DNA from: Escherichia coli
GTDB taxonomy: Bacteria > Pseudomonadota > Gammaproteobacteria > Enterobacterales > Enterobacteriaceae
NCBI RefSeq assembly: GCF_044647545.1
Contig: NZ_CP172818.1
Strand: one strand, 5' to 3'
Length of the DNA: 64,000 nt
Shown here: positions 5,998 to 36,329 of the stretch, piece by piece
Layout: each line of letters starts with the position of its first letter
Position numbering within the stretch: position 1 is the first letter of the stretch
Position numbers and translations under genes: made by a program
Notes under the pieces: model-generated
Told to the model about the DNA's origin: nothing
Databases searched by the model: none
The model's input: the letters and a program-made list of their open reading frames with translations, nothing else

Positions 5998-6455
5998 GGG
6001 CGGGACTTCCGTTTCCTGCGTGTCTTTTTAGAGGAGGGCATACTGATTAATAAACCGACGGCGATAAAAATAACGCCCATAATGCCGATAAACCCCCATT
6101 TAAAAAAATTAACCCACGGGTTATTTATCTCAGCCTTTTCAGGATGTCCTGGAGAATAATAAACATTAACTTTATCGCCTTCGCTGTCTTCATAAAAATC
6201 GCTGCCAATACTCGAATTGAAAATTAGCGTGTAATCTGGCGTCGGACGAAAGGCAACGACGGGATACCACGAACCATTTTTACCCGTGCGATGAGAATGA
6301 CTGGAGTGCCAGACGGTATCAACAATGACGCCTTCAGTATGAATCGCGTCTTTGCTATAGGTGAACTGGTTATAAAAGATAACAACAGAAATGAGGATCA
6401 GTACCAGACCGATACCGAAGAATATACGAAAGAAAACTTTACTGTCCTGACTCAT
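5994..6455 (-). CDS. ymfA: Inner-membrane protein YmfA (DUF3592-like)
   Basis: Frame is open to 6497. I chose ATG 6455 (MSQDSKVFF) as the K-12-like start. Two TM segments flank a soluble domain. Confidence 0.75.
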
Positions 6456-6512
6456 TAGCCACATCCTTGCTAAATAAAAAACGGGCGGTAATACCACCGC
6501 CCGCTTGCTGAA

Positions 6513-7559
6513 TTAACGTCCTGCTTTCAGCTTCTGATAATACTCTTCATAAATGCTGCTGGCTACGCCAACGTCATTCTGCCATTCACCATTTTTAATG
6601 GTTTCAGCATCCGGGTAGAGCGTTTTATCGTTCGCCACTTCCGGACTTAACAGCTTACGCGCCGCAAGGTTTGGCGTTGGATAACCGATAGTTTCAGCAA
6701 CCTGTTTTGCCACATCCGGGCGCAGCAGGAAGTTGATCAATTTCAGCGCGCCTTCTTTGTTTTTGGCATTTGCCGGGATCGCCAGGCTGTCCATCCAGAA
6801 AATGCCGCCTTCTTTCGGCCACACCACGTCAATTGGCGTACCCGACTGCCGTGCAACGAAAGCAGAACCGTTCCAGATCATGCCGAGGTTAACTTCGCCT
6901 TCCATATACGGGTTAGCGGGGTTATCGGAGTTAAACGCCGCGACGTTTGGCATCAGTTTTTTCAGCTCGTTGTATGCAGCTTCAATCTCTTTCGGATCGG
7001 TGGTGTTACCGGAGTAGCCTAGCTTACGCAGCGCCATCTGGAACACTTCACGGGCATCGTCGGTCAGCAGCAGGCTGCCTTTGTACTCAGGCTTCCACAG
7101 ATCGGCCCAGCTGGTAACGGATTTCGGATCTACCGCATCACCGTTAACGCCAATCGCCGTCGCCCCCCAGATATACGGAATGGAGTAATCGTTATTCGGG
7201 TCAAACGGCTTATTGAGCATGTCTGGATCGAGATTGCTGAAGTTCGTTAACTTCGACTTGTCGATCTTCTGGATCATCCCTTCTTTACGCATTTTATCGA
7301 CGTAATAGGTTGAAGGAACCACCAGGTCATAGGCACCGTCTTTGTACGTTTTCAGCTTGGCATACATGGTTTCGTTCGACTCGTAAGTCGAATAGATAAC
7401 CTTAATACCGGTTTCTTTGGTGAACTGTTCAAGCAGTCCTGGCGGCACGTACTCGGTCCAGTTGTAGAAATACAGCGTGTTGTTGTCATCGGCGTGAGCG
7501 GCGCTCATGCCCAGTGCCAGAGCACCCGCCGCGAGCAGGTGGCGTGACCATTTTTTCAT
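6513..7559 (-). CDS. potD: Spermidine/putrescine periplasmic binding protein PotD
   Basis: 348-aa ORF with signal peptide MKKWSRHLLAAGALALGMSAAHA. Recognised as PotD. Confidence 0.95.
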   Translation of the reverse strand: MKKWSRHLLAAGALALGMSAAHADDNNTLYFYNWTEYVPPGLLEQFTKETGIKVIYSTYESNETMYAKLKTYKDGAYDLVVPSTYYVDKMRKEGMIQKIDKSKLTNFSNLDPDMLNKPFDPNNDYSIPYIWGATAIGVNGDAVDPKSVTSWADLWKPEYKGSLLLTDDAREVFQMALRKLGYSGNTTDPKEIEAAYNELKKLMPNVAAFNSDNPANPYMEGEVNLGMIWNGSAFVARQSGTPIDVVWPKEGGIFWMDSLAIPANAKNKEGALKLINFLLRPDVAKQVAETIGYPTPNLAARKLLSPEVANDKTLYPDAETIKNGEWQNDVGVASSIYEEYYQKLKAGR

Positions 7560-19852: not shown

Positions 19853-21103
19853 ATGGAAAGTAAAGTAGTTGTTCCGGCACAAGGCAAGAAGATCACCCTG
19901 CAAAACGGCAAACTCAACGTTCCTGAAAATCCGATTATCCCTTACATTGAAGGTGATGGAATCGGTGTAGATGTAACCCCAGCCATGCTGAAAGTGGTCG
20001 ACGCTGCAGTCGAGAAAGCCTATAAAGGCGAGCGTAAAATCTCCTGGATGGAAATTTACACCGGTGAAAAATCCACACAGGTTTATGGTCAGGATGTCTG
20101 GCTACCTGCTGAAACCCTTGATCTGATTCGTGAATATCGCGTTGCCATCAAAGGCCCGCTGACCACTCCGGTTGGTGGTGGTATTCGCTCTCTCAACGTT
20201 GCTCTGCGCCAGGAACTGGATCTCTACATCTGCCTGCGTCCGGTACGTTACTATCAGGGCACTCCAAGCCCGGTTAAACACCCTGAACTGACCGATATGG
20301 TTATCTTCCGTGAAAACTCGGAAGACATTTATGCGGGTATCGAATGGAAAGCAGACTCTGCCGACGCTGAGAAAGTGATTAAATTCCTGCGTGAAGAGAT
20401 GGGCGTGAAGAAAATTCGCTTCCCGGAACATTGCGGCATCGGTATTAAGCCGTGTTCTGAAGAAGGCACCAAACGTCTGGTTCGTGCAGCGATCGAATAC
20501 GCAATTGCTAACGATCGTGACTCTGTGACCCTGGTGCACAAAGGCAACATCATGAAGTTCACCGAAGGCGCGTTTAAAGACTGGGGCTACCAGCTGGCGC
20601 GTGAAGAGTTTGGCGGTGAACTGATCGACGGCGGCCCGTGGCTGAAAGTTAAAAACCCGAACACCGGCAAAGAGATCGTCATTAAAGACGTGATTGCTGA
20701 TGCATTCCTGCAACAGATCCTGCTGCGTCCGGCTGAATATGATGTTATCGCCTGTATGAACCTGAACGGTGACTACATTTCTGACGCCCTGGCAGCGCAG
20801 GTTGGCGGTATCGGTATCGCCCCTGGCGCAAACATCGGTGACGAATGCGCCCTGTTTGAAGCCACCCACGGTACTGCGCCGAAATATGCCGGTCAGGACA
20901 AAGTAAACCCAGGCTCTATTATTCTCTCCGCTGAGATGATGTTACGCCATATGGGCTGGACTGAAGCCGCAGACTTGATTGTTAAAGGTATGGAAGGCGC
21001 AATCAACGCCAAGACTGTAACCTATGACTTCGAACGTCTGATGGAAGGCGCTAAACTGCTGAAATGTTCAGAGTTTGGTGACGCGATCATCAAGAATATG
21101 TAA
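19853..21103 (+). CDS. icd: Isocitrate dehydrogenase (NADP) Icd
   Basis: 416 aa with motif NLNGDYISD. The last 161 nt lie inside the prophage-flanking direct repeat. Confidence 0.97.
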
Positions 21104-21154
21104 TTACTACATGTGTTAAATATTGTAACGGGCGTATAACACGCCCGTTGTTTT
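20943..21154 (+). repeat. Left 212-bp direct repeat (icd 3' end plus terminator; attL side)
   Basis: Reads identically to 36118-36329 in my base-by-base comparison. Confidence 0.9.
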
Positions 21155-21205: not shown

Positions 21206-21518
21206 CCCCTCGGTAGTTTTGGGGTAGGCTGGCCGGTCAGGTGGTAGTTCTACTACTAGTCTCCCACATAGATATTCCTTAGCTTTTTATTATTGCTGGC
21301 GGACGCTCGTTAATATTTAAGGTCTTCATTGATTAAGACATCCCCAAAGTTAGTTATGTATTCACTGTTATTAGGACAATTATGAATTACCACTCCTTAC
21401 ACCCGCTCAAATATTGTTAAATTGCCGGTTTTGTATCAACTACTCACCCGGGACTCGCCAGGGGACAGCCAACAGGCATTGGGTGCAATCACCTTAGCGT
21501 TCAGGTACATGCGGAATG

Positions 21519-21543
21519 TAAAAAAGGCCGCGAGCGCGGCCCC
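21519..21543 (-). terminator. Rho-independent terminator of ymfE-ymfD
   Basis: The minus strand reads ggccgc-gctc-gcggcc followed by T6. It lies about 55 nt 3' of the ymfD stop. Confidence 0.75.
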
Positions 21544-21596
21544 TTCACATACATCTTTAGTACTGAGACTGTTTAACCTAGGGAATTATTATCGTA

Positions 21597-22262
21597 TTAT
21601 ATTGCATTACAACTCCCAACAGTGACATATGAACTTCCTGCTTTACTCCACGACTTTAATATTTCAAGGCCATGTGAAGAACATATTTCTTGCACTGCGA
21701 GTTCATCGAGTAATCCATAGTAAGAAACACTTTTTGAATTTTTGTAAATGTATCCGTAAAGATGTTTTCTTCCTGTTTCGTATTTTTTGAAGTATGAGCT
21801 TTTATATTGATTTACAATAAGAGTCTCACCTCCTGATTTTAGTAATCTCTTGATGCTAAGAACTATTTTGTCGATTGTATCCCGACAAGGAACGGCAGAG
21901 AGAACATTAGAGCAAAGGATGAAATCGTAACCCCCAATTATTTTGTCGACATCCTCGAAAGCAACTGTATTTGCATTTTTATAATATCGTGGGACATAGT
22001 CAATAATTTTAGTTTTAATTCCTCTAATAATTTGCTCTCTTTCAAGTTGCCTTTTCGAGTCTAGAAAAGTAACTTCATCAAATTTACTGATTAATTCATC
22101 AGAATATCTAAGTTTTCCGCAGCCAAAATCAAGGGCGTGGCCATTTTTCTCAATGCTTCTAATATACTCGCAAAGATATCTAGAGGGCATCGTATGAGGT
22201 TTTGCTGCATTCTCTGAGCGAATATTAACTCCGTGCATATTATAGTTCAAAGCAAGTACCAT
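21597..22262 (-). CDS. ymfD: Class I SAM-dependent methyltransferase YmfD (substrate unknown)
   Basis: 221 aa. Motif I ALDFGCGKLRY, acidic post-I FLDS, motif IV-like FILCSNVL. Very AT-rich. Start abuts the ymfE stop (TGAATG). Confidence 0.85.
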   Translation of the reverse strand: MVLALNYNMHGVNIRSENAAKPHTMPSRYLCEYIRSIEKNGHALDFGCGKLRYSDELISKFDEVTFLDSKRQLEREQIIRGIKTKIIDYVPRYYKNANTVAFEDVDKIIGGYDFILCSNVLSAVPCRDTIDKIVLSIKRLLKSGGETLIVNQYKSSYFKKYETGRKHLYGYIYKNSKSVSYYGLLDELAVQEICSSHGLEILKSWSKAGSSYVTVGSCNAI

Positions 22263-22976
22263 TCAATTAATGTTATTTTTAGTGAAAAATTCTTTTATTT
22301 TATCGTCCGGGATTTTTCCGACTTGACTTTCAGTTCTGGGCTTAACTGTCAAAGCAAAGATAATACCACTCACTGAGAATGATAAAATTACAAAAAAGAA
22401 TAAAGACAGCAAAGAACCTTCAACATGAAAAATATCCATTTGTTTGCAAAAAAAGATTATTAGGAAGGAAATTAATGCAATTATCGAAAATTCAAAAAAT
22501 ATCCAAAAATAGTATACTTTATTCCAGAAGAGTTCAATATAATGTTTGTCTTCAATTTTTCTTACTTCAGGGTAATATAGATTGCTCATTACATTGTGAG
22601 CTTCATCTTTATTTAATTTTCTGTTGACTCCAGCTCTCCGTGATAACGGTTTTATAATTAGATGCTTATCCCAAAGATATCGCACCCGAAGTAGTTTGGC
22701 TGCATTGTTATGTAGGTCTAACGCACCGCTAATTAAATATGCAAAAATCGCAAAAGCACAAGGTAATATACCAAAAGATAGTGCCCAATTAATAAAGCTC
22801 TCATGATCTTTAATAGGTGGGACATACTTGGTTGGTAATGTTATTAAAGGGATGTATTCGTAAATAACTAGAAGTATGCAATATATTAGCGTATTTAAGA
22901 AAGTTGCTTTATGAAGTTTAGGCAACATTTCATTATAATTTTTGGGGGGTTCGAACATATTATTCACCTGAGTCAC
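22263..22976 (-). CDS. ymfE: Polytopic inner-membrane protein YmfE (function unknown)
   Basis: 237-aa ORF with about 4 hydrophobic helices and alternative Met starts within the first 7 codons. Translationally coupled to ymfD. Confidence 0.8.
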   Translation of the reverse strand: MTQVNNMFEPPKNYNEMLPKLHKATFLNTLIYCILLVIYEYIPLITLPTKYVPPIKDHESFINWALSFGILPCAFAIFAYLISGALDLHNNAAKLLRVRYLWDKHLIIKPLSRRAGVNRKLNKDEAHNVMSNLYYPEVRKIEDKHYIELFWNKVYYFWIFFEFSIIALISFLIIFFCKQMDIFHVEGSLLSLFFFVILSFSVSGIIFALTVKPRTESQVGKIPDDKIKEFFTKNNIN

Positions 22977-23168
22977 GCTTTAGGATAGTGTAATGGTAAT
23001 ATTTAATTAAGTGTCATTATATACTTTTCAGTAGGTTAGTTACAATTTTTTGTATCTGTTCAGGCTGACCTAGCTTCGCTGACAGACAATATTGTGATCA
23101 GTAGCACGTATCGAGGAGGAGTAGCGCTACAAATTTGACGCTGGGTGAGAATCTGAAATTGATAGAAA

Positions 23169-23232
23169 TGAAATAATGAAATAATGAAATGATGAAATGA
23201 TGAAATGATGAAATGATGAAATGATGAAATGA
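23169..23232. repeat. 8-bp tandem repeat, 8 copies (2 x TGAAATAA + 6 x TGAAATGA)
   Basis: Counted directly in the sequence. Lies in the divergent ymfE/lit intergenic region. Confidence 0.95.
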
Positions 23233-23424
23233 TGACAGAGTGTCCAGTGGGCACGGATGGTGTCTTACGACATGCTTACCTTAATCGTTCCCAGTGTGCC
23301 TATAGCAGATATTCTAAACATGTCGATAATTCATTACGCATATAGTATCGAACATAGAAAAAACTGAAGATTCATCTTATTTTGTATATACTACCTAGCC
23401 CAACAATGTAGAGGTTAACGAAAA

Positions 23425-24318
23425 ATGCGCTCACCAATTTGTCATCTTTTCTCAGCAATTAATTCATCACCATTTAAGATTGCACCAGAGAAGGAGCAAG
23501 ATCTTAAAACGATAGTTGACGACAAAAAAATTATAATTTCAGTTGTGAGTGAACCTGGTTTTAATATCCGAGTCAGGAAGAATGAGAGTAATAATTCACA
23601 TGAAATAGTTCTAACAGTAGCTTCACTTGAATATATTTGGGCATTTTCCAATTTCTTTTGGGTTTTTACGCAAGAGTACTCCAAATCTCAGAAAAATAAT
23701 GATGAGCACTTTGATTTAACAGGAAAAAATAGGCTTAAAAAGTCTGATGAACTTCTTAAATGGGCAAGGAAAAACTTGCAAACAACAGGTTGCGAATCAT
23801 GGCCTAAAAAATGTCCCAAGCCAGAAGCATATTTACAAGGAAGCGAAGACTCACAAGTTGCTAGCGAGATATTTCTTTGTGCTATTGCTTGGATTCTTCA
23901 TCATGAAATAAGTCATGTTGTTTTACAGCATCCATTGGTCACTACAGCATTCTCCACTCAAGAGGAGCGTGAAGCAGATTCACATGCTACAAAATGGATA
24001 TTAGGCAACCTGTATGAATCCGCTCCTGAATTAAAGAAACGTGCACTTGGCATTGCTACGGCAGTGCTTTGTATACAAAGCTTAGAAGTTGAAAATTACT
24101 TCTGTTTACAAAATACACACCCAGCTGCATATGAGCGTATATATTCGAATATTTCATGCTACCCTGTCGGAAATGAAGAGTTGATTGAAGCTCTATGTAC
24201 AGTGATGCTTCAATATCTTTTCCATGGCAAAAATATCAATGTGAATCTAGATGGGGAGTCCTTTTCATCGATTTTAGGTGATCTTCTCTGTGATATTTCA
24301 CGTCTTACCAGTAACTGA
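23425..24318 (+). CDS. lit: Lit: phage-exclusion zinc metalloprotease (cleaves EF-Tu during T4 late gene expression)
   Basis: 297 aa with HExxH motif (HHEISH). Recognised as e14 Lit. Confidence 0.92.
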   Translation: MRSPICHLFSAINSSPFKIAPEKEQDLKTIVDDKKIIISVVSEPGFNIRVRKNESNNSHEIVLTVASLEYIWAFSNFFWVFTQEYSKSQKNNDEHFDLTGKNRLKKSDELLKWARKNLQTTGCESWPKKCPKPEAYLQGSEDSQVASEIFLCAIAWILHHEISHVVLQHPLVTTAFSTQEEREADSHATKWILGNLYESAPELKKRALGIATAVLCIQSLEVENYFCLQNTHPAAYERIYSNISCYPVGNEELIEALCTVMLQYLFHGKNINVNLDGESFSSILGDLLCDISRLTSN

Positions 24319-24408: not shown

Positions 24409-25536
24409 TCACAACGCTACTTTGCTCCATCCTTTACCTCGATCATCATGATAACGATCGGTTTGTTGTTGTGTTTTATGACCAAGTAGTTTTTGTGTGT
24501 CTAACCCCTGTTCTTTATACAGACGTTCAGATAAAGACCTTTGCTCATGGAATGTCGCAGGTGAACCCTCTCCCCAGTCAATTCTTGCTAAATCTCTCGC
24601 TTTACTAAAATTCATCGTCAATGTATTGGCTTTAACCTGCGCTCCGCGCTCTGCTTGTGAAGTTGAACGAAAAAAATGCACTAAGTATGCACTGACTGCA
24701 TAGTCACGGCAGCGGGCTACTACATCGCGTAAACTCCAGTTAATCGCATTGAGGCGAAGAGAAAGAGGAATTGCGATTTTGCTCCCGGTCTTTTCCTGAA
24801 TGACATGAAGATGATCATCCCAAATATCGCTAAATTTCATACGCGAAATATCACCTAACCGCTGACCAGTAACCAGCGCTAACAGCATGGCATTTCCCAT
24901 GTAACGATGAGTAGCGTCTGCGATATCGAAGATTTTTTTCCATTCTTCAAGGCTCAGCCGTTGTCGGGTAATTTTTCTTCTTGGTTGTTTAGTGGCTAAT
25001 GCTGGGTTATAGCCAGGAGGTACTTCTCCGTAGTGCTGCGCCTCTTTGAAAACATCAATCAGGACGGAGCGAACTACTTGTGCCATTCTTGGCCGCCCAG
25101 CGGCGATATACTCATCAAGCAATTGTGCTATATCTCTGACATCAACGGCTGAGATCAACTTCATTCCTGCTCGTTCTCTGAGCAAGGATACTGGTTTAGC
25201 TTTTTGTTTATAGGTGTTGAGTCTTATATCACCACTTTTAAGCCTGTCATCCTGGATCGCTTGATAGCGATCTAACCAGGTTGACGTTGTGATAGCCTTT
25301 CCTTTGCTGGTTGCGATCCTGTCACTGATAGCCAGAATCTGCCGGGTTCTTTGTTCAGCCAGGCGAGTGTTGGCCTCAGTGGCAATAGCGATAGCTTCAG
25401 CTTCGTTTGTTCCCAAAGCATGGAATTTTCCTGTCACTGGATGCTTATACCGCCAATAGACTTTATTTACCTTCCTACTATAAAGCGGATATAAGTTAGG
25501 GACTGAAACATTATTCTTACGCGGTCTGGCTGCCAT
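24409..25536 (-). CDS. intE: Tyrosine integrase IntE
   Basis: 375 aa. Catalytic pattern R (GQRLGD), HxxR (HEQRSL) and H...Y (GHKTQQQTDRY). Confidence 0.94.
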   Translation of the reverse strand: MAARPRKNNVSVPNLYPLYSRKVNKVYWRYKHPVTGKFHALGTNEAEAIAIATEANTRLAEQRTRQILAISDRIATSKGKAITTSTWLDRYQAIQDDRLKSGDIRLNTYKQKAKPVSLLRERAGMKLISAVDVRDIAQLLDEYIAAGRPRMAQVVRSVLIDVFKEAQHYGEVPPGYNPALATKQPRRKITRQRLSLEEWKKIFDIADATHRYMGNAMLLALVTGQRLGDISRMKFSDIWDDHLHVIQEKTGSKIAIPLSLRLNAINWSLRDVVARCRDYAVSAYLVHFFRSTSQAERGAQVKANTLTMNFSKARDLARIDWGEGSPATFHEQRSLSERLYKEQGLDTQKLLGHKTQQQTDRYHDDRGKGWSKVAL

Positions 25537-36117: not shown

Positions 36118-36277
36118 TACGCCATATGGGCTGGACTGAAGCCGCAGACTTGATTGTTAAAGGTATGGAAGGCGCAATCAACGCCAAGACTGTAACCTAT
36201 GACTTCGAACGTCTGATGGAAGGCGCTAAACTGCTGAAATGTTCAGAGTTTGGTGACGCGATCATCAAGAATATGTA
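36118..36277 (+). pseudogene. icdC: Displaced icd 3' fragment (icdC)
   Basis: Identical to icd 20943-21103 and lacks the 5' 1.1 kb of the gene. Confidence 0.9.
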
Positions 36278-36329
36278 ATTACTACATGTGTTAAATATTG
36301 TAACGGGCGTATAACACGCCCGTTGTTTT
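36118..36329 (+). repeat. Right 212-bp direct repeat (attR side)
   Basis: Identical to 20943-21154. Includes the terminator hairpin at 36302-36324. Confidence 0.9.

What the first reader, a model, noticed from the sequence alone, without database searches (positions are those of the whole stretch)
21519..22976. Uncharacterised membrane-protein / SAM-methyltransferase operon (ymfE-ymfD) in the att-proximal cargo next to Lit
ymfE (about 4 TM helices) and ymfD are translationally coupled (TGAATG). ymfD is a class I methyltransferase with motif I ALDFGCGKLRY. They have their own strong terminator at 21519-21543. They lie between the attachment repeat and intE in a markedly AT-rich stretch, the slot where temperate phages carry morons and defence genes. 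The neighbouring gene is the abortive-infection protease lit. To my knowledge neither protein has an assigned function. A membrane protein paired with a methyltransferase could be a superinfection-exclusion or nucleic-acid-modifying defence or counter-defence module, but this is inference from context only.
Basis: inference. Interest (0 to 1): 0.6.

Follow-up and report, generated by a model that had tools for sequence, protein, structure and literature searches.

The report
Membrane protein plus methyltransferase cassette
The two uncharacterised e14 prophage genes ymfE and ymfD are one conserved, mobile two-gene unit found across about ten bacterial phyla, and its context suggests, without proving, a new kind of anti-phage system that could be tested directly in E. 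coli K-12.

Summary
ymfE (four-helix inner-membrane protein) and ymfD (class I SAM methyltransferase) abut as TGA|ATG. They end in a strong terminator and lie in 31-37% GC DNA between the e14 attachment repeat and lit/intE.

- The stated refutation test, no co-conservation outside e14, fails. The two genes are adjacent on one strand in 37 of 39 genome loci spanning about ten phyla, in 42 of 43 informative metagenome loci, and in prophage contigs.
- Both gene orders occur. In two diverged lineages the genes are fused into one protein.
- Three diverged relatives carry a TIR domain on the YmfE C-terminus and still keep the methyltransferase next door.
- In other E. coli the same icd-intE slot holds a Septu-like pair or DarTG. 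Elsewhere the pair sits beside Lamassu, Hachiman or STING.
- YmfE matches no Pfam, NCBIfam, PHROG or PADLOC family and no solved fold.
- YmfD lacks DNA-methyltransferase motifs and resembles small-molecule and tRNA methyltransferases.

Best reading, by inference only: a membrane-anchored, non-DNA-methylating defence cassette. No phenotype and no substrate are known, and most non-prophage neighbourhoods look ordinary.

The parts
22263..22958 (-). ymfE: four-helix inner-membrane protein, 231 aa from the conserved ATG. RefSeq uses the GTG at 22967; the longest ORF starts at 22976. It has a basic 69-residue cytoplasmic helical domain between TM2 and TM3. It founds an uncatalogued family.
21597..22262 (-). 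ymfD: cytoplasmic class I SAM-dependent methyltransferase, 221 aa, of a distinct subfamily. The subfamily is marked by an N-terminal hairpin with the motif I(R/K)SEN(A/T)AK(P/S) and by motif I, LDFGCGKLRY.
   Evidence: Pfam. Family invariants include D45, G47, D68, E103 and N119. AlphaFold pLDDT 90, pTM 0.88. The Foldseek top hits are Trm9, DhpI, MfnG, NNMT, TehB and CypM, at TM 0.53-0.63 and 9-20% identity. No DNA-methyltransferase motifs. dN/dS about 0.25.
22260..22265 (-). TGA|ATG junction: the ymfE stop abuts the ymfD start, with no obvious ribosome-binding site. This fits termination-reinitiation coupling.
   Evidence: Sequence. Relatives abut, overlap or are 3-15 nt apart.
21520..21541 (-). 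Intrinsic terminator of the ymfE-ymfD unit: a 6-bp GC stem, a GCTC loop and T6.
   Evidence: Sequence. Fold of -21.1 kcal/mol, z = -3.26.
23016..23045 (-). Candidate sigma-70 promoter of ymfE (TTGTAA, 18 nt spacer, TATAAT; 10 of 12 matches). This is a consensus match only.
   Evidence: The number of promoter-like sites in the region does not exceed chance. The region is reported as an H-NS-bound 'promoter island' (PMC3661553).
20943..21154 (.). Left e14 attachment repeat (the icd 3' end), which bounds the cargo slot. Its partner is at 36118-36329.
   Evidence: 212-nt direct repeat, 100% identical, spacing 15175.
23425..24318 (+). lit: a known abortive-infection protease and neighbouring cargo of the same slot. 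It is not part of the pair.
   Evidence: PADLOC Lit, E = 8.5e-124. RefSeq annotation 'cell death peptidase Lit'.

Best explanation
ymfE-ymfD is a self-contained, horizontally mobile two-gene cassette whose products act as one membrane-anchored complex.

- **YmfE.** It is an N-in/C-in inner-membrane protein with four helices. It has a conserved basic cytoplasmic domain and invariant polar residues at and inside the membrane (H83, R93, E156).
- **YmfD.** It is a catalytically intact class I SAM methyltransferase held at the cytoplasmic C-terminal face of YmfE. Its substrate is not DNA. The substrate is most likely membrane-proximal: YmfE itself, a lipid, or a small anionic molecule or RNA.
- **Proposed role.** The cassette is most likely an anti-phage (abortive-infection or exclusion) system carried as prophage cargo. 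YmfE would be the membrane sensor and scaffold to which cytoplasmic enzymatic modules attach: the methyltransferase always, and a TIR NADase in some lineages.

Shown here: the module structure, topology, fold class, mobility and genomic contexts. Inferred: the physical complex, the non-DNA substrate and the defence role.
For: **The pair is one unit**
- The two genes are adjacent on the same strand in 37 of 39 genome loci from about ten phyla. The two exceptions are a contig end and a marginal methyltransferase hit.
- They are adjacent in 42 of 43 metagenome loci that have at least 800 nt on both sides.
- 28 of the 30 prophage contigs in IMG/VR have ymfE next to ymfD. One has only a displaced IS-split fragment, and one begins at ymfD.
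- Both gene orders occur. No third gene is conserved.
- Natural YmfE-YmfD fusions exist in two lineages that are 41% identical. One of them is seen on four contigs.
- Pairwise identities of the two proteins correlate (r = 0.98 overall; 0.75 among distant pairs).
- Both genes are under purifying selection.

**Conflict context**
- Lit is the neighbour.
- The same icd-intE slot holds a PtuA-like ATPase plus an HNH protein, or DarTG, in other E. coli.
- Lamassu lies directly upstream in L012 and near the pair in L006. Hachiman lies directly upstream in L014. More LmuB and SNF2-type neighbours appear in metagenome loci.
- A variant pair sits in a different lambdoid prophage slot beside a SMEK-domain protein.
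- Three YmfE-TIR fusions, 32-43% identical to each other, each keep a full-length YmfD-family gene next door. One of them lies 1.2 kb from a prokaryotic STING gene.

**Substrate is not DNA**
- No DNA-methyltransferase motifs or families.
- The structural neighbours are small-molecule and tRNA methyltransferases.

**Regulation**
- The locus is AT-rich and reported as H-NS bound (for the unreadable preprint).
- It is not SOS-induced.
Against: - No phenotype of any kind is on record for either gene in the papers I could read.
- Known defence genes lie within a few genes of the pair in only a minority of non-enterobacterial loci, roughly 10 of about 65. Most neighbours are ordinary or unknown genes such as LysR regulators, hydrolases and nitroreductases. 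That is well below the association used to nominate defence families.
- YmfE was absent from 50,697 sequenced phage genomes.
- TIR fusions are rare: 3 of the 150 listed representatives and none of 67 metagenome loci.
- The physical interaction and the substrate are untested.
- A methyltransferase is an unusual defence component unless it modifies DNA.
Confidence: 0.5

Rival explanations
1. Small-molecule or lipid modification module unrelated to phage. YmfD would methylate a membrane lipid head group, a quinone-like compound or a toxic anion that YmfE binds, presents or exports. The benefit would be resistance or envelope remodelling, in the manner of the membrane-protein and methyltransferase pair TehA/TehB or of phospholipid N-methyltransferases.
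For: - YmfD passes the Pfam TehB domain threshold (22.6 against 20.4 bits). Its nearest structures are small-molecule methyltransferases such as DhpI, NNMT, TehB and MfnG.
- Fusions place the methyltransferase within a few residues of the membrane protein.
- Many neighbours outside prophages are stress or xenobiotic-type genes: nitroreductase, FMN reductase, hydrolases, LysR and AraC regulators.
- YmfE has invariant charged residues in and near the membrane, as a transporter or a membrane enzyme would.
Against: - YmfD scores far below the TehB equivalog cut-offs (30 against 218 bits).
- YmfE matches no transporter or enzyme family, TehA included.
- TIR fusions, and repeated placement in prophage defence slots and next to Lamassu or Hachiman, are not expected for a metabolic module.
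- No neighbouring pathway genes are conserved.
Confidence: 0.2
2. Addiction (toxin-antitoxin-like) module. YmfE would be a toxic membrane protein that YmfD keeps harmless. The pair would stabilise the mobile elements that carry it, with no dedicated anti-phage role.
For: - The cassette is compact, mobile, tightly coupled and patchily distributed.
- It lies next to hokD in one prophage.
- H-NS silencing is typical of toxic horizontally acquired genes.
Against: - Both proteins evolve slowly under purifying selection, and they are sometimes fused into one polypeptide. Fusion is hard to reconcile with a labile-antitoxin logic.
- e14 excises freely without reported killing.
- One enterobacterial locus keeps YmfD without YmfE rather than the reverse.
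- IS-disrupted ymfE copies with an intact ymfD exist.
Confidence: 0.12
3. DNA or other nucleic-acid modification by an orphan methyltransferase, either for epigenetic control or as counter-defence protecting the prophage genome.
For: - There is a weak PADLOC match to the methyltransferase mad2 of the MADS system (E = 8.6e-5, SAM-binding region only).
- Prophages often carry orphan DNA methyltransferases.
- Trm9, a tRNA methyltransferase, is the top structural hit, so an RNA substrate stays open.
Against: - No (D/N/S)PP(Y/F/W), PCQ or ENV motif.
- No Pfam DNA-methyltransferase family at E <= 1.
- A target-recognition domain is absent from this 221-aa single-domain protein.
- An obligate membrane partner is unexplained under this model.
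- A ymfD knockout showed no specific role in mRNA m6A (PMC12096079). This is a weak test, because the gene is probably silent in the laboratory.
Confidence: 0.06
4. In K-12 the pair is an inert relic: intact but permanently silenced cargo of a defective prophage, with no present function in this strain.
For: - e14 is defective and is lost without a fitness cost in several laboratory lineages.
- The locus is H-NS bound.
- Transcripts barely respond to SOS induction.
- The K-12 allele occurs only in the K-12 lineage among complete E. coli genomes (282 of 5426, all at least 99% identical).
Against: - Both K-12 reading frames are intact and keep every family-invariant residue.
- The promoter-like site, the coupling junction and the terminator are intact.
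- Lit, in the same silenced slot, is a functional defence gene.
- This reading concerns expression in one strain, not what the cassette does.
Confidence: 0.12

Closest known systems
RexA/RexB of phage lambda and Kiwa (KwaA/KwaB): prophage or island two-gene exclusion systems that pair a four-helix membrane protein with a cytoplasmic partner
   Same: A two-gene cassette, a small polytopic inner-membrane protein plus a soluble partner, and carriage as lambdoid prophage cargo or in defence islands. This resemblance in logic rests on established knowledge of those systems.
   Different: No sequence relationship: YmfE and YmfD hit no RexB, RexA, KwaA or KwaB model in PADLOC. The soluble partner here is an intact SAM methyltransferase, which neither of those systems has. 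No exclusion phenotype has been shown.
TehA/TehB tellurite-resistance pair (membrane protein plus class I SAM methyltransferase)
   Same: A membrane protein is encoded next to a small class I methyltransferase. YmfD passes the Pfam TehB domain threshold and aligns structurally with TehB.
   Different: YmfD is far below the TehB equivalog cut-offs. YmfE is a four-helix protein with no match to TehA or SLAC1. The genomic contexts differ: prophage hot spots and TIR fusions.
TIR-domain immune proteins of bacteria (Thoeris ThsB, TIR effectors of CBASS and Pycsar, membrane-anchored TIR proteins)
   Same: Three diverged family members carry a C-terminal TIR_2 domain on YmfE. It keeps the W-x-x-x-E motif, which in characterised TIR NADases holds the catalytic glutamate (the motif's meaning is from established knowledge).
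   Different: The e14 YmfE has no TIR domain. No ThsA, cyclase or other signalling partner is present. A methyltransferase partner is not known in any TIR system.
CheR and chemoreceptors (a methyltransferase tethered to the C-terminus of a membrane receptor, methylating its cytoplasmic helices)
   Same: An analogy in possible mechanism only. A class I methyltransferase would be obligatorily associated with a membrane protein that has a conserved helical cytoplasmic domain and a conserved C-terminal tail. Fusions attach the methyltransferase at that tail.
   Different: No homology to CheR (no CheR Pfam match). There is no demethylase partner. Methylation of YmfE has not been shown.
Methylation-based defence systems (restriction-modification, BREX, DISARM, MADS)
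   Same: They contain a SAM methyltransferase and lie in defence contexts. YmfD has a weak match to mad2.
   Different: YmfD has no DNA-methyltransferase motifs or target-recognition domain. There is no nuclease, ATPase or other partner from those systems.

Membership tests
Class I (Rossmann-fold) SAM-dependent methyltransferases | Glycine-rich motif I (E/D-x-G-x-G-x-G-like) after strand 1 | tested here: met
   LDFGCGKL is present. D45, G47, C48 and K50 are invariant in 25 family members.
Class I (Rossmann-fold) SAM-dependent methyltransferases | Acidic residue at the end of strand 2 (ribose binding) and an acidic residue after strand 3 | tested here: met
   D68 and E103 are invariant and lie at the ends of predicted strands 63-68 and 97-101. 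Their role is inferred from the canonical fold.
Class I (Rossmann-fold) SAM-dependent methyltransferases | Curated family score and seven-stranded alpha/beta fold | tested here: met
   Methyltransf_12 scores 33.2 (cut-off 30), Methyltransf_23 27.4 (27), and Methyltransf_11 23.4 (21.2). Foldseek probability is 1.0 to many class I methyltransferases.
DNA amino-methyltransferases (N6-adenine, N4-cytosine) | Motif IV (D/N/S)-P-P-(Y/F/W), and a match to N6_N4_Mtase, MethyltransfD12 or related families | tested here: not met
   The motif is absent, and YmfD contains no PP dipeptide at all. No such Pfam family appears at E <= 1.
DNA cytosine-C5 methyltransferases | PCQ and ENV catalytic motifs | tested here: not met
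   Neither motif is present. No DNA_methylase Pfam match.
TehB tellurite-resistance methyltransferase with its TehA partner | Equivalog-level score to TehB | tested here: not met
   NCBIfam TehB models score 30.4, 21.6 and 16.5 bits, against cut-offs of 218-303. Only the generic Pfam TehB domain threshold is passed.
TehB tellurite-resistance methyltransferase with its TehA partner | A partner membrane protein of the TehA/SLAC1 family | tested here: not met
   YmfE and 56 relatives match no such family.
Known or candidate anti-phage systems in PADLOC-DB 2.0 | Significant match of both components to the models of one system | tested here: not met
   YmfE has no match. YmfD has only a match to mad2 at E = 8.6e-5 over the SAM-binding region.
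Anti-phage defence systems in general (operational definition) | Protection against phage when expressed in a sensitive host | not testable with these tools
No such result appears in the papers I could read. One preprint that mentions the 'ymfE locus' and 'ymfE and lit' could not be opened.
Anti-phage defence systems in general (operational definition) | Enrichment next to known defence genes or in mobile-element hot spots | tested here: inconclusive
   Strong in E. coli prophage slots and in several Pseudomonas loci. Elsewhere only a minority of loci qualify. No matched background was computed.
TIR-domain immune proteins | Presence of a TIR domain | tested here: not met
   The e14 YmfE ends 26 residues after TM4 and has no TIR match. 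Only the relatives P0282, P0303 and P0339 carry TIR_2 (E = 2e-20 to 6e-24).
SLATT and other catalogued membrane effector domains (Cap15 TM and similar) | Sequence match to the Pfam models | tested here: not met
   No SLATT match in 57 family members at E <= 0.5. There is a single noise-level Cap15_TM hit (E = 0.16) in one member. Similarity at the fold level could not be tested against those families.

The most novel reading that the evidence does not exclude
A SAM-dependent methyltransferase that does not act on DNA is the core enzymatic component of an immune system. YmfD, docked on the membrane protein YmfE, would methylate YmfE itself, a lipid, or a phage or host protein or RNA at the inner face of the membrane. 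That methylation, or its failure when a phage depletes SAM or shuts off the host, would switch YmfE into a lethal or excluding state. In some lineages it would switch the TIR domain fused to YmfE instead. This would be a new biochemical principle for anti-phage defence, encoded in E. coli K-12 itself and hidden by H-NS silencing.
Probability: 0.3. Interest if true: 0.85.

Novelty: new variant of a known kind. Interest (0 to 1): 0.62.

Why it matters
ymfD and ymfE are among the remaining function-unknown genes of the best-studied bacterium. This analysis turns them from two anonymous prophage ORFs into the founding example of a widespread, strictly paired cassette with about 540 diverged lineages in about ten phyla. 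The membrane component belongs to no catalogued family.

If the defence reading is right, it adds a system with a component type not seen before in immunity: a non-DNA class I methyltransferase bound to a membrane protein. It would also link that system to TIR signalling, and it would show that H-NS-silenced prophage slots in laboratory strains still hide immune genes. The icd-intE slot also emerges as a prophage defence hot spot with further unknown cargo.

The whole hypothesis can be tested with standard K-12 genetics.

Tried and rejected
**YmfE against known families and folds**
- Family searches of YmfE in Pfam, NCBIfam, PHROGs and PADLOC found nothing. Scanning 57 relatives gave only noise.
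- Foldseek against viral models returned nothing with E < 1.
- The AlphaFold-database library was unavailable.

**YmfD against solved structures**
- A profile search found only E of about 0.006 to generic methyltransferases.

**Searches for a third gene or a phage origin**
- Clustering 286 neighbours revealed no conserved third gene. Only a subfamily has an extra Cys-rich gene, and that gene has no Pfam or PDB match.
- tblastn of YmfE against 50,697 phage genomes found no match.
- A YmfE-based scan of viral contigs failed because the derived peptide pattern was too narrow. The YmfD-based scan worked.

**Literature**
- No functional study turned up. Papers list the genes only as part of e14 deletions or transcriptome tables.
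- The m6A study found no specific role for ymfD.
- The methylation-free strain ER2796 lacks e14, so it says nothing about YmfD.
- The 2026 H-NS preprint that mentions ymfE 11 times and ymfD never could not be opened. Phrase probes showed only 'ymfE locus' and 'ymfE and lit'.

**Ideas considered and rejected**
- A restriction-modification or BREX-type DNA methyltransferase: the motifs are absent.
- A TehAB homologue: cut-offs are not met and there is no TehA-like partner.
- A chance adjacency of two genes: refuted by the co-conservation and the fusions.
Full report
**1. What is in the sequence**

The window is E. coli K-12. The region 21400-23420 is 100% identical to MG1655 and occurs in 282 of 5426 complete E. 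coli genomes, all at 99% identity or more.

- On the minus strand, an ORF of 221 aa (21597-22262, ymfD) follows directly after an ORF at 22263-22976 (ymfE).
- RefSeq starts ymfE at the GTG at 22967, giving 234 aa. Twenty homologues start at the methionine encoded at 22958, giving 231 aa.
- The junction reads AATTGA|ATGGTA. The stop is followed at once by the start, with no purine-rich ribosome-binding site.
- Fifty-five nucleotides after the ymfD stop lies the hairpin GGCCGC-GCTC-GCGGCC plus T6 (21520-21541). It folds at -21.1 kcal/mol, z = -3.3 against shuffles.
- GC content falls to 0.31-0.37 between 21500 and 24000, against about 0.50-0.53 in icd.
- e14 is bounded by a 212-nt perfect direct repeat at 20943-21154 and 36118-36329. 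The pair and lit therefore fill the space between the left attachment repeat and intE (24409-25536).
- The gene at 23425-24318 is Lit.

**2. The two proteins**

YmfD:
- It passes the Pfam gathering scores of four class I methyltransferase families, though narrowly.
- Its AlphaFold model (pLDDT 90, pTM 0.88) is a Rossmann-type methyltransferase with an N-terminal beta-hairpin.
- Its closest solved structures are Trm9, DhpI, MfnG, NNMT, TehB and CypM. These act on small molecules, a peptide or tRNA. The matches have TM-scores of 0.53-0.63 and 9-20% identity. Sequence search of the PDB finds nothing better than E = 0.006.
- The family has its own signature. It comprises an invariant N-terminal I(R/K)SEN(A/T)AK(P/S) motif, motif I LDFGCGKLRY, DS..QL.R.Q, C.NVLSA(I/V)P and NQ...S.YF, plus invariant acidic residues D45, D68 and E103 at the canonical SAM-binding positions.
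- It has no (D/N/S)PP(Y/F/W), PCQ or ENV motif.

YmfE:
- It has four hydrophobic segments. Across the family, lysine plus arginine average 2.2 in the N-terminus, 0.9 in loop 1, 12.8 in the central loop, 0.6 in loop 3 and 4.0 in the C-terminus. This gives an N-in/C-in topology with a 69-residue basic cytoplasmic domain.
- The model is confident (pLDDT 90.2, pTM 0.84) and all-helical.
- It matches no family in Pfam, NCBIfam, PHROGs or PADLOC. Neither do 56 relatives.
- Residues L12, H83, R93, Y129, W152 and E156 are invariant over relatives as low as 17% identical. W152 and E156 lie inside TM3.

**3. The pair is one unit**

- A search with a YmfD alignment in one genome per species gave 39 loci. 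They come from Gamma- and Alphaproteobacteria, Planctomycetota, Acidobacteriota, Nitrospirota, Thermodesulfobacteriota and other deltaproteobacterial MAGs, Binataceae, Dormiibacterota, Gemmatimonadota and Bacillota.
- A YmfE profile finds a homologue directly adjacent on the same strand in 37 of these. One exception is a contig that ends just after ymfD. The other is a marginal methyltransferase hit.
- Three small contigs labelled Scatousia, Haemophilus and Streptomyces carry near-enterobacterial copies and are probably contamination.
- In metagenomes, 42 of 43 loci with at least 800 nt on both sides have the partner.
- In IMG/VR, 30 prophage-derived contigs carry the enterobacterial variant of ymfD. 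Twenty-eight have ymfE next to it. One of these copies, and the only ymfE remnant in a further contig, are interrupted. The last contig begins at ymfD.
- The order is E-D in most loci and D-E in others.
- No third gene is conserved among 286 neighbours. A subfamily has an extra Cys-rich gene between the two, and it matches no known family.
- Two natural fusions of full-length YmfE to full-length YmfD exist. One is seen on four contigs. The two are 41% identical to each other, so the fused form is old and maintained. In one fusion the linker is only about eight residues, which puts the methyltransferase at the membrane surface.
- Pairwise identities of the two proteins correlate across loci (r = 0.98; 0.75 for distant pairs).
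- Both genes are under purifying selection, with median dN/dS of 0.25 for YmfD and 0.09 for YmfE.
- A whole-library profile search counts 543 YmfE-family representatives at 50% identity, almost all about 233 aa long.

**4. Context**

- Among E. coli genomes with an IntE-like integrase at icd, the slot between icd and the integrase holds different cargo:
  - a PtuA-type ATPase (E = 2e-239) with an HNH partner (PDC-M01B, E = 1e-114);
  - DarT plus DarG;
  - a 348-aa unknown;
  - a 1040-aa plus a 156-aa unknown.
  This is a defence hot spot in the sense established for P2 and P4 prophages.
- A second allele of the pair, 60-69% identical in protein, occurs in 153 of 5426 E. coli genomes. It sits in a different lambdoid prophage at ompW, between hokD/rem and a SMEK-domain protein, on the opposite strand to the phage genes. 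The cassette therefore moves between prophage cargo slots.
- In Pseudomonas loci, Lamassu (L012) or Hachiman (L014) ends 90-160 bp upstream of ymfE. Lamassu or a type II methyltransferase lies within about 2.5 kb in two others.
- Further LmuB and SNF2/HKD-type neighbours appear in metagenome loci.
- Resolvases, integrases and transposases recur.
- The limit of this evidence: in most non-enterobacterial loci the neighbours are ordinary or unknown genes. I did not compute a matched background.

**5. The TIR fusions**

- Three family members (388-395 aa, 32-43% identical to each other) carry a full TIR_2 domain (E = 2e-20 to 6e-24) on the cytoplasmic C-terminus of YmfE. They keep the W-x-x-x-E motif.
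- Each still has a full-length YmfD-family gene immediately beside it. Two are co-directional with a 3-nt gap, and one is divergent.
- One of them lies 1.2 kb from a prokaryotic STING gene.
- TIR domains in bacteria are, by established knowledge, immune NADases or signal generators.
- The TIR and, in the E-D fusions, the methyltransferase attach at the same end of YmfE. This suggests that YmfE is a membrane platform for cytoplasmic enzymatic modules.
- TIR fusions are rare: 3 of the 150 listed representatives and none of 67 metagenome loci.

**6. Literature**

- I found no functional assignment. RefSeq calls the products 'protein YmfE' and 'class I SAM-dependent methyltransferase'.
- A 2025 study tested a ymfD knockout for mRNA m6A and found no specific role (PMC12096079).
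- The region is listed as an H-NS-bound promoter island (PMC3661553). Neither gene responds to SOS induction, although other e14 genes do (PMC11002266).
- Other papers mention the genes only within e14 deletions.
- A 2026 preprint on H-NS silencing of antiviral immunity mentions ymfE 11 times, including 'ymfE locus' and 'ymfE and lit', and never mentions ymfD. It could not be opened. Its content is therefore unknown and could bear on novelty.

**7. Interpretation**

Shown here:
- a strictly paired, mobile, selectively maintained cassette of a new four-helix membrane family and a distinct, catalytically intact class I methyltransferase subfamily;
- placement in prophage defence slots;
- occasional TIR fusion.

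Inferred:
- The two proteins form a complex at the inner face of the membrane.
- The substrate is not DNA and is membrane-proximal.
- The cassette is an anti-phage system, with YmfE as sensor and scaffold.

I put the defence reading at about 0.5. The main rival is a small-molecule or lipid modification module of the TehAB type (0.2). It is favoured by the structural neighbours and by many ordinary neighbourhoods, but it does not explain the TIR fusions or the hot-spot placement. An addiction module (0.12), nucleic-acid modification (0.06) and silence in K-12 (0.12, which is compatible with the others) follow.

**8. Novelty and score**

The genes are annotated but uncharacterised. The family-level picture drawn here was not found in any library or paper I could read:
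- obligate pairing across phyla;
- natural fusions;
- TIR-bearing relatives;
- the icd-intE hot spot.

If it is a defence system, it follows the familiar format of a prophage-borne two-gene cassette pairing a membrane protein with a soluble partner. Its components are unprecedented in that role. I therefore rate it a new variant of a known kind and give it an interest of 0.62. It is directly testable in K-12, but it rests on context alone.

Noticed in passing
window 23168-23235: A near-perfect 8-bp tandem repeat (ATGAAATG, 8.5 copies, 98% matches) lies in the divergent intergenic region between lit and ymfE. Its role is unknown; a regulatory or H-NS-related one is possible.
   Followed up: no
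L088:5914-6960; L089:2881-6003 and 6430-6900: In e14-like prophages of other E. coli, the icd-intE slot holds proteins with no PADLOC match (348 aa; 1040 aa plus 156 aa). Elsewhere the same slot holds Septu-like or DarTG systems, so these are candidate new defence genes.
   Followed up: partly
L084:8662-9180; L019:1596-2063; L085:8766-9305; also L018 and L023: A subfamily, mostly from Acidobacteriota and soil metagenomes, has a third gene between ymfE and ymfD homologues. It encodes a protein of about 155-172 aa, rich in Cys (motifs HLWA.YV.GF and RC.NFRF), with no Pfam or PDB match.
   Followed up: partly
PLSDB records OR902851.1 and OR902858.1 (hits H31, H32): Two 15.19-kb E. coli 'plasmid' records carry ymfE at 99-100% identity. 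Their size equals the e14 element (15,175 bp between the attachment repeats), so they are probably excised e14 circles.
   Followed up: no
window 22958-22976: The ymfE start codon is ambiguous. The longest ORF starts at GTG 22976, and RefSeq uses GTG 22967. All homologues begin at the ATG at 22958 (MFEPPKNYNEML...).
   Followed up: yes
L047:13978-14877: The second E. coli allele of the pair sits beside a SMEK-domain protein. That protein matches the N-terminal domain of an Argonaute-associated PADLOC model (E = 1e-20). The locus is in a lambdoid prophage at ompW, next to hokD.
   Followed up: partly
L096:6986-7660: One enterobacterial metagenome locus has a YmfD homologue with no YmfE gene or remnant within 7 kb. 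It is the only clear break of the pairing.
   Followed up: partly
L003, L004, L005: Contigs of 2-3 kb in assemblies labelled Candidatus Scatousia, Haemophilus sp. and Streptomyces sp. carry pairs 67-69% identical to e14's, like the enterobacterial allele. They are probably contaminating or mis-binned contigs.
   Followed up: no
L081:10312-13210: Next to one metagenomic pair lies a 741-aa GHKL-type ATPase (HATPase_c_3) with a 226-aa partner, and an integrase fragment is nearby. This may be another conflict system.
   Followed up: no
window 21125-21151: The icd terminator hairpin lies inside the e14 attachment repeat and is duplicated at the right end of e14. A diverged third copy lies 867 bp further on.
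   Followed up: no
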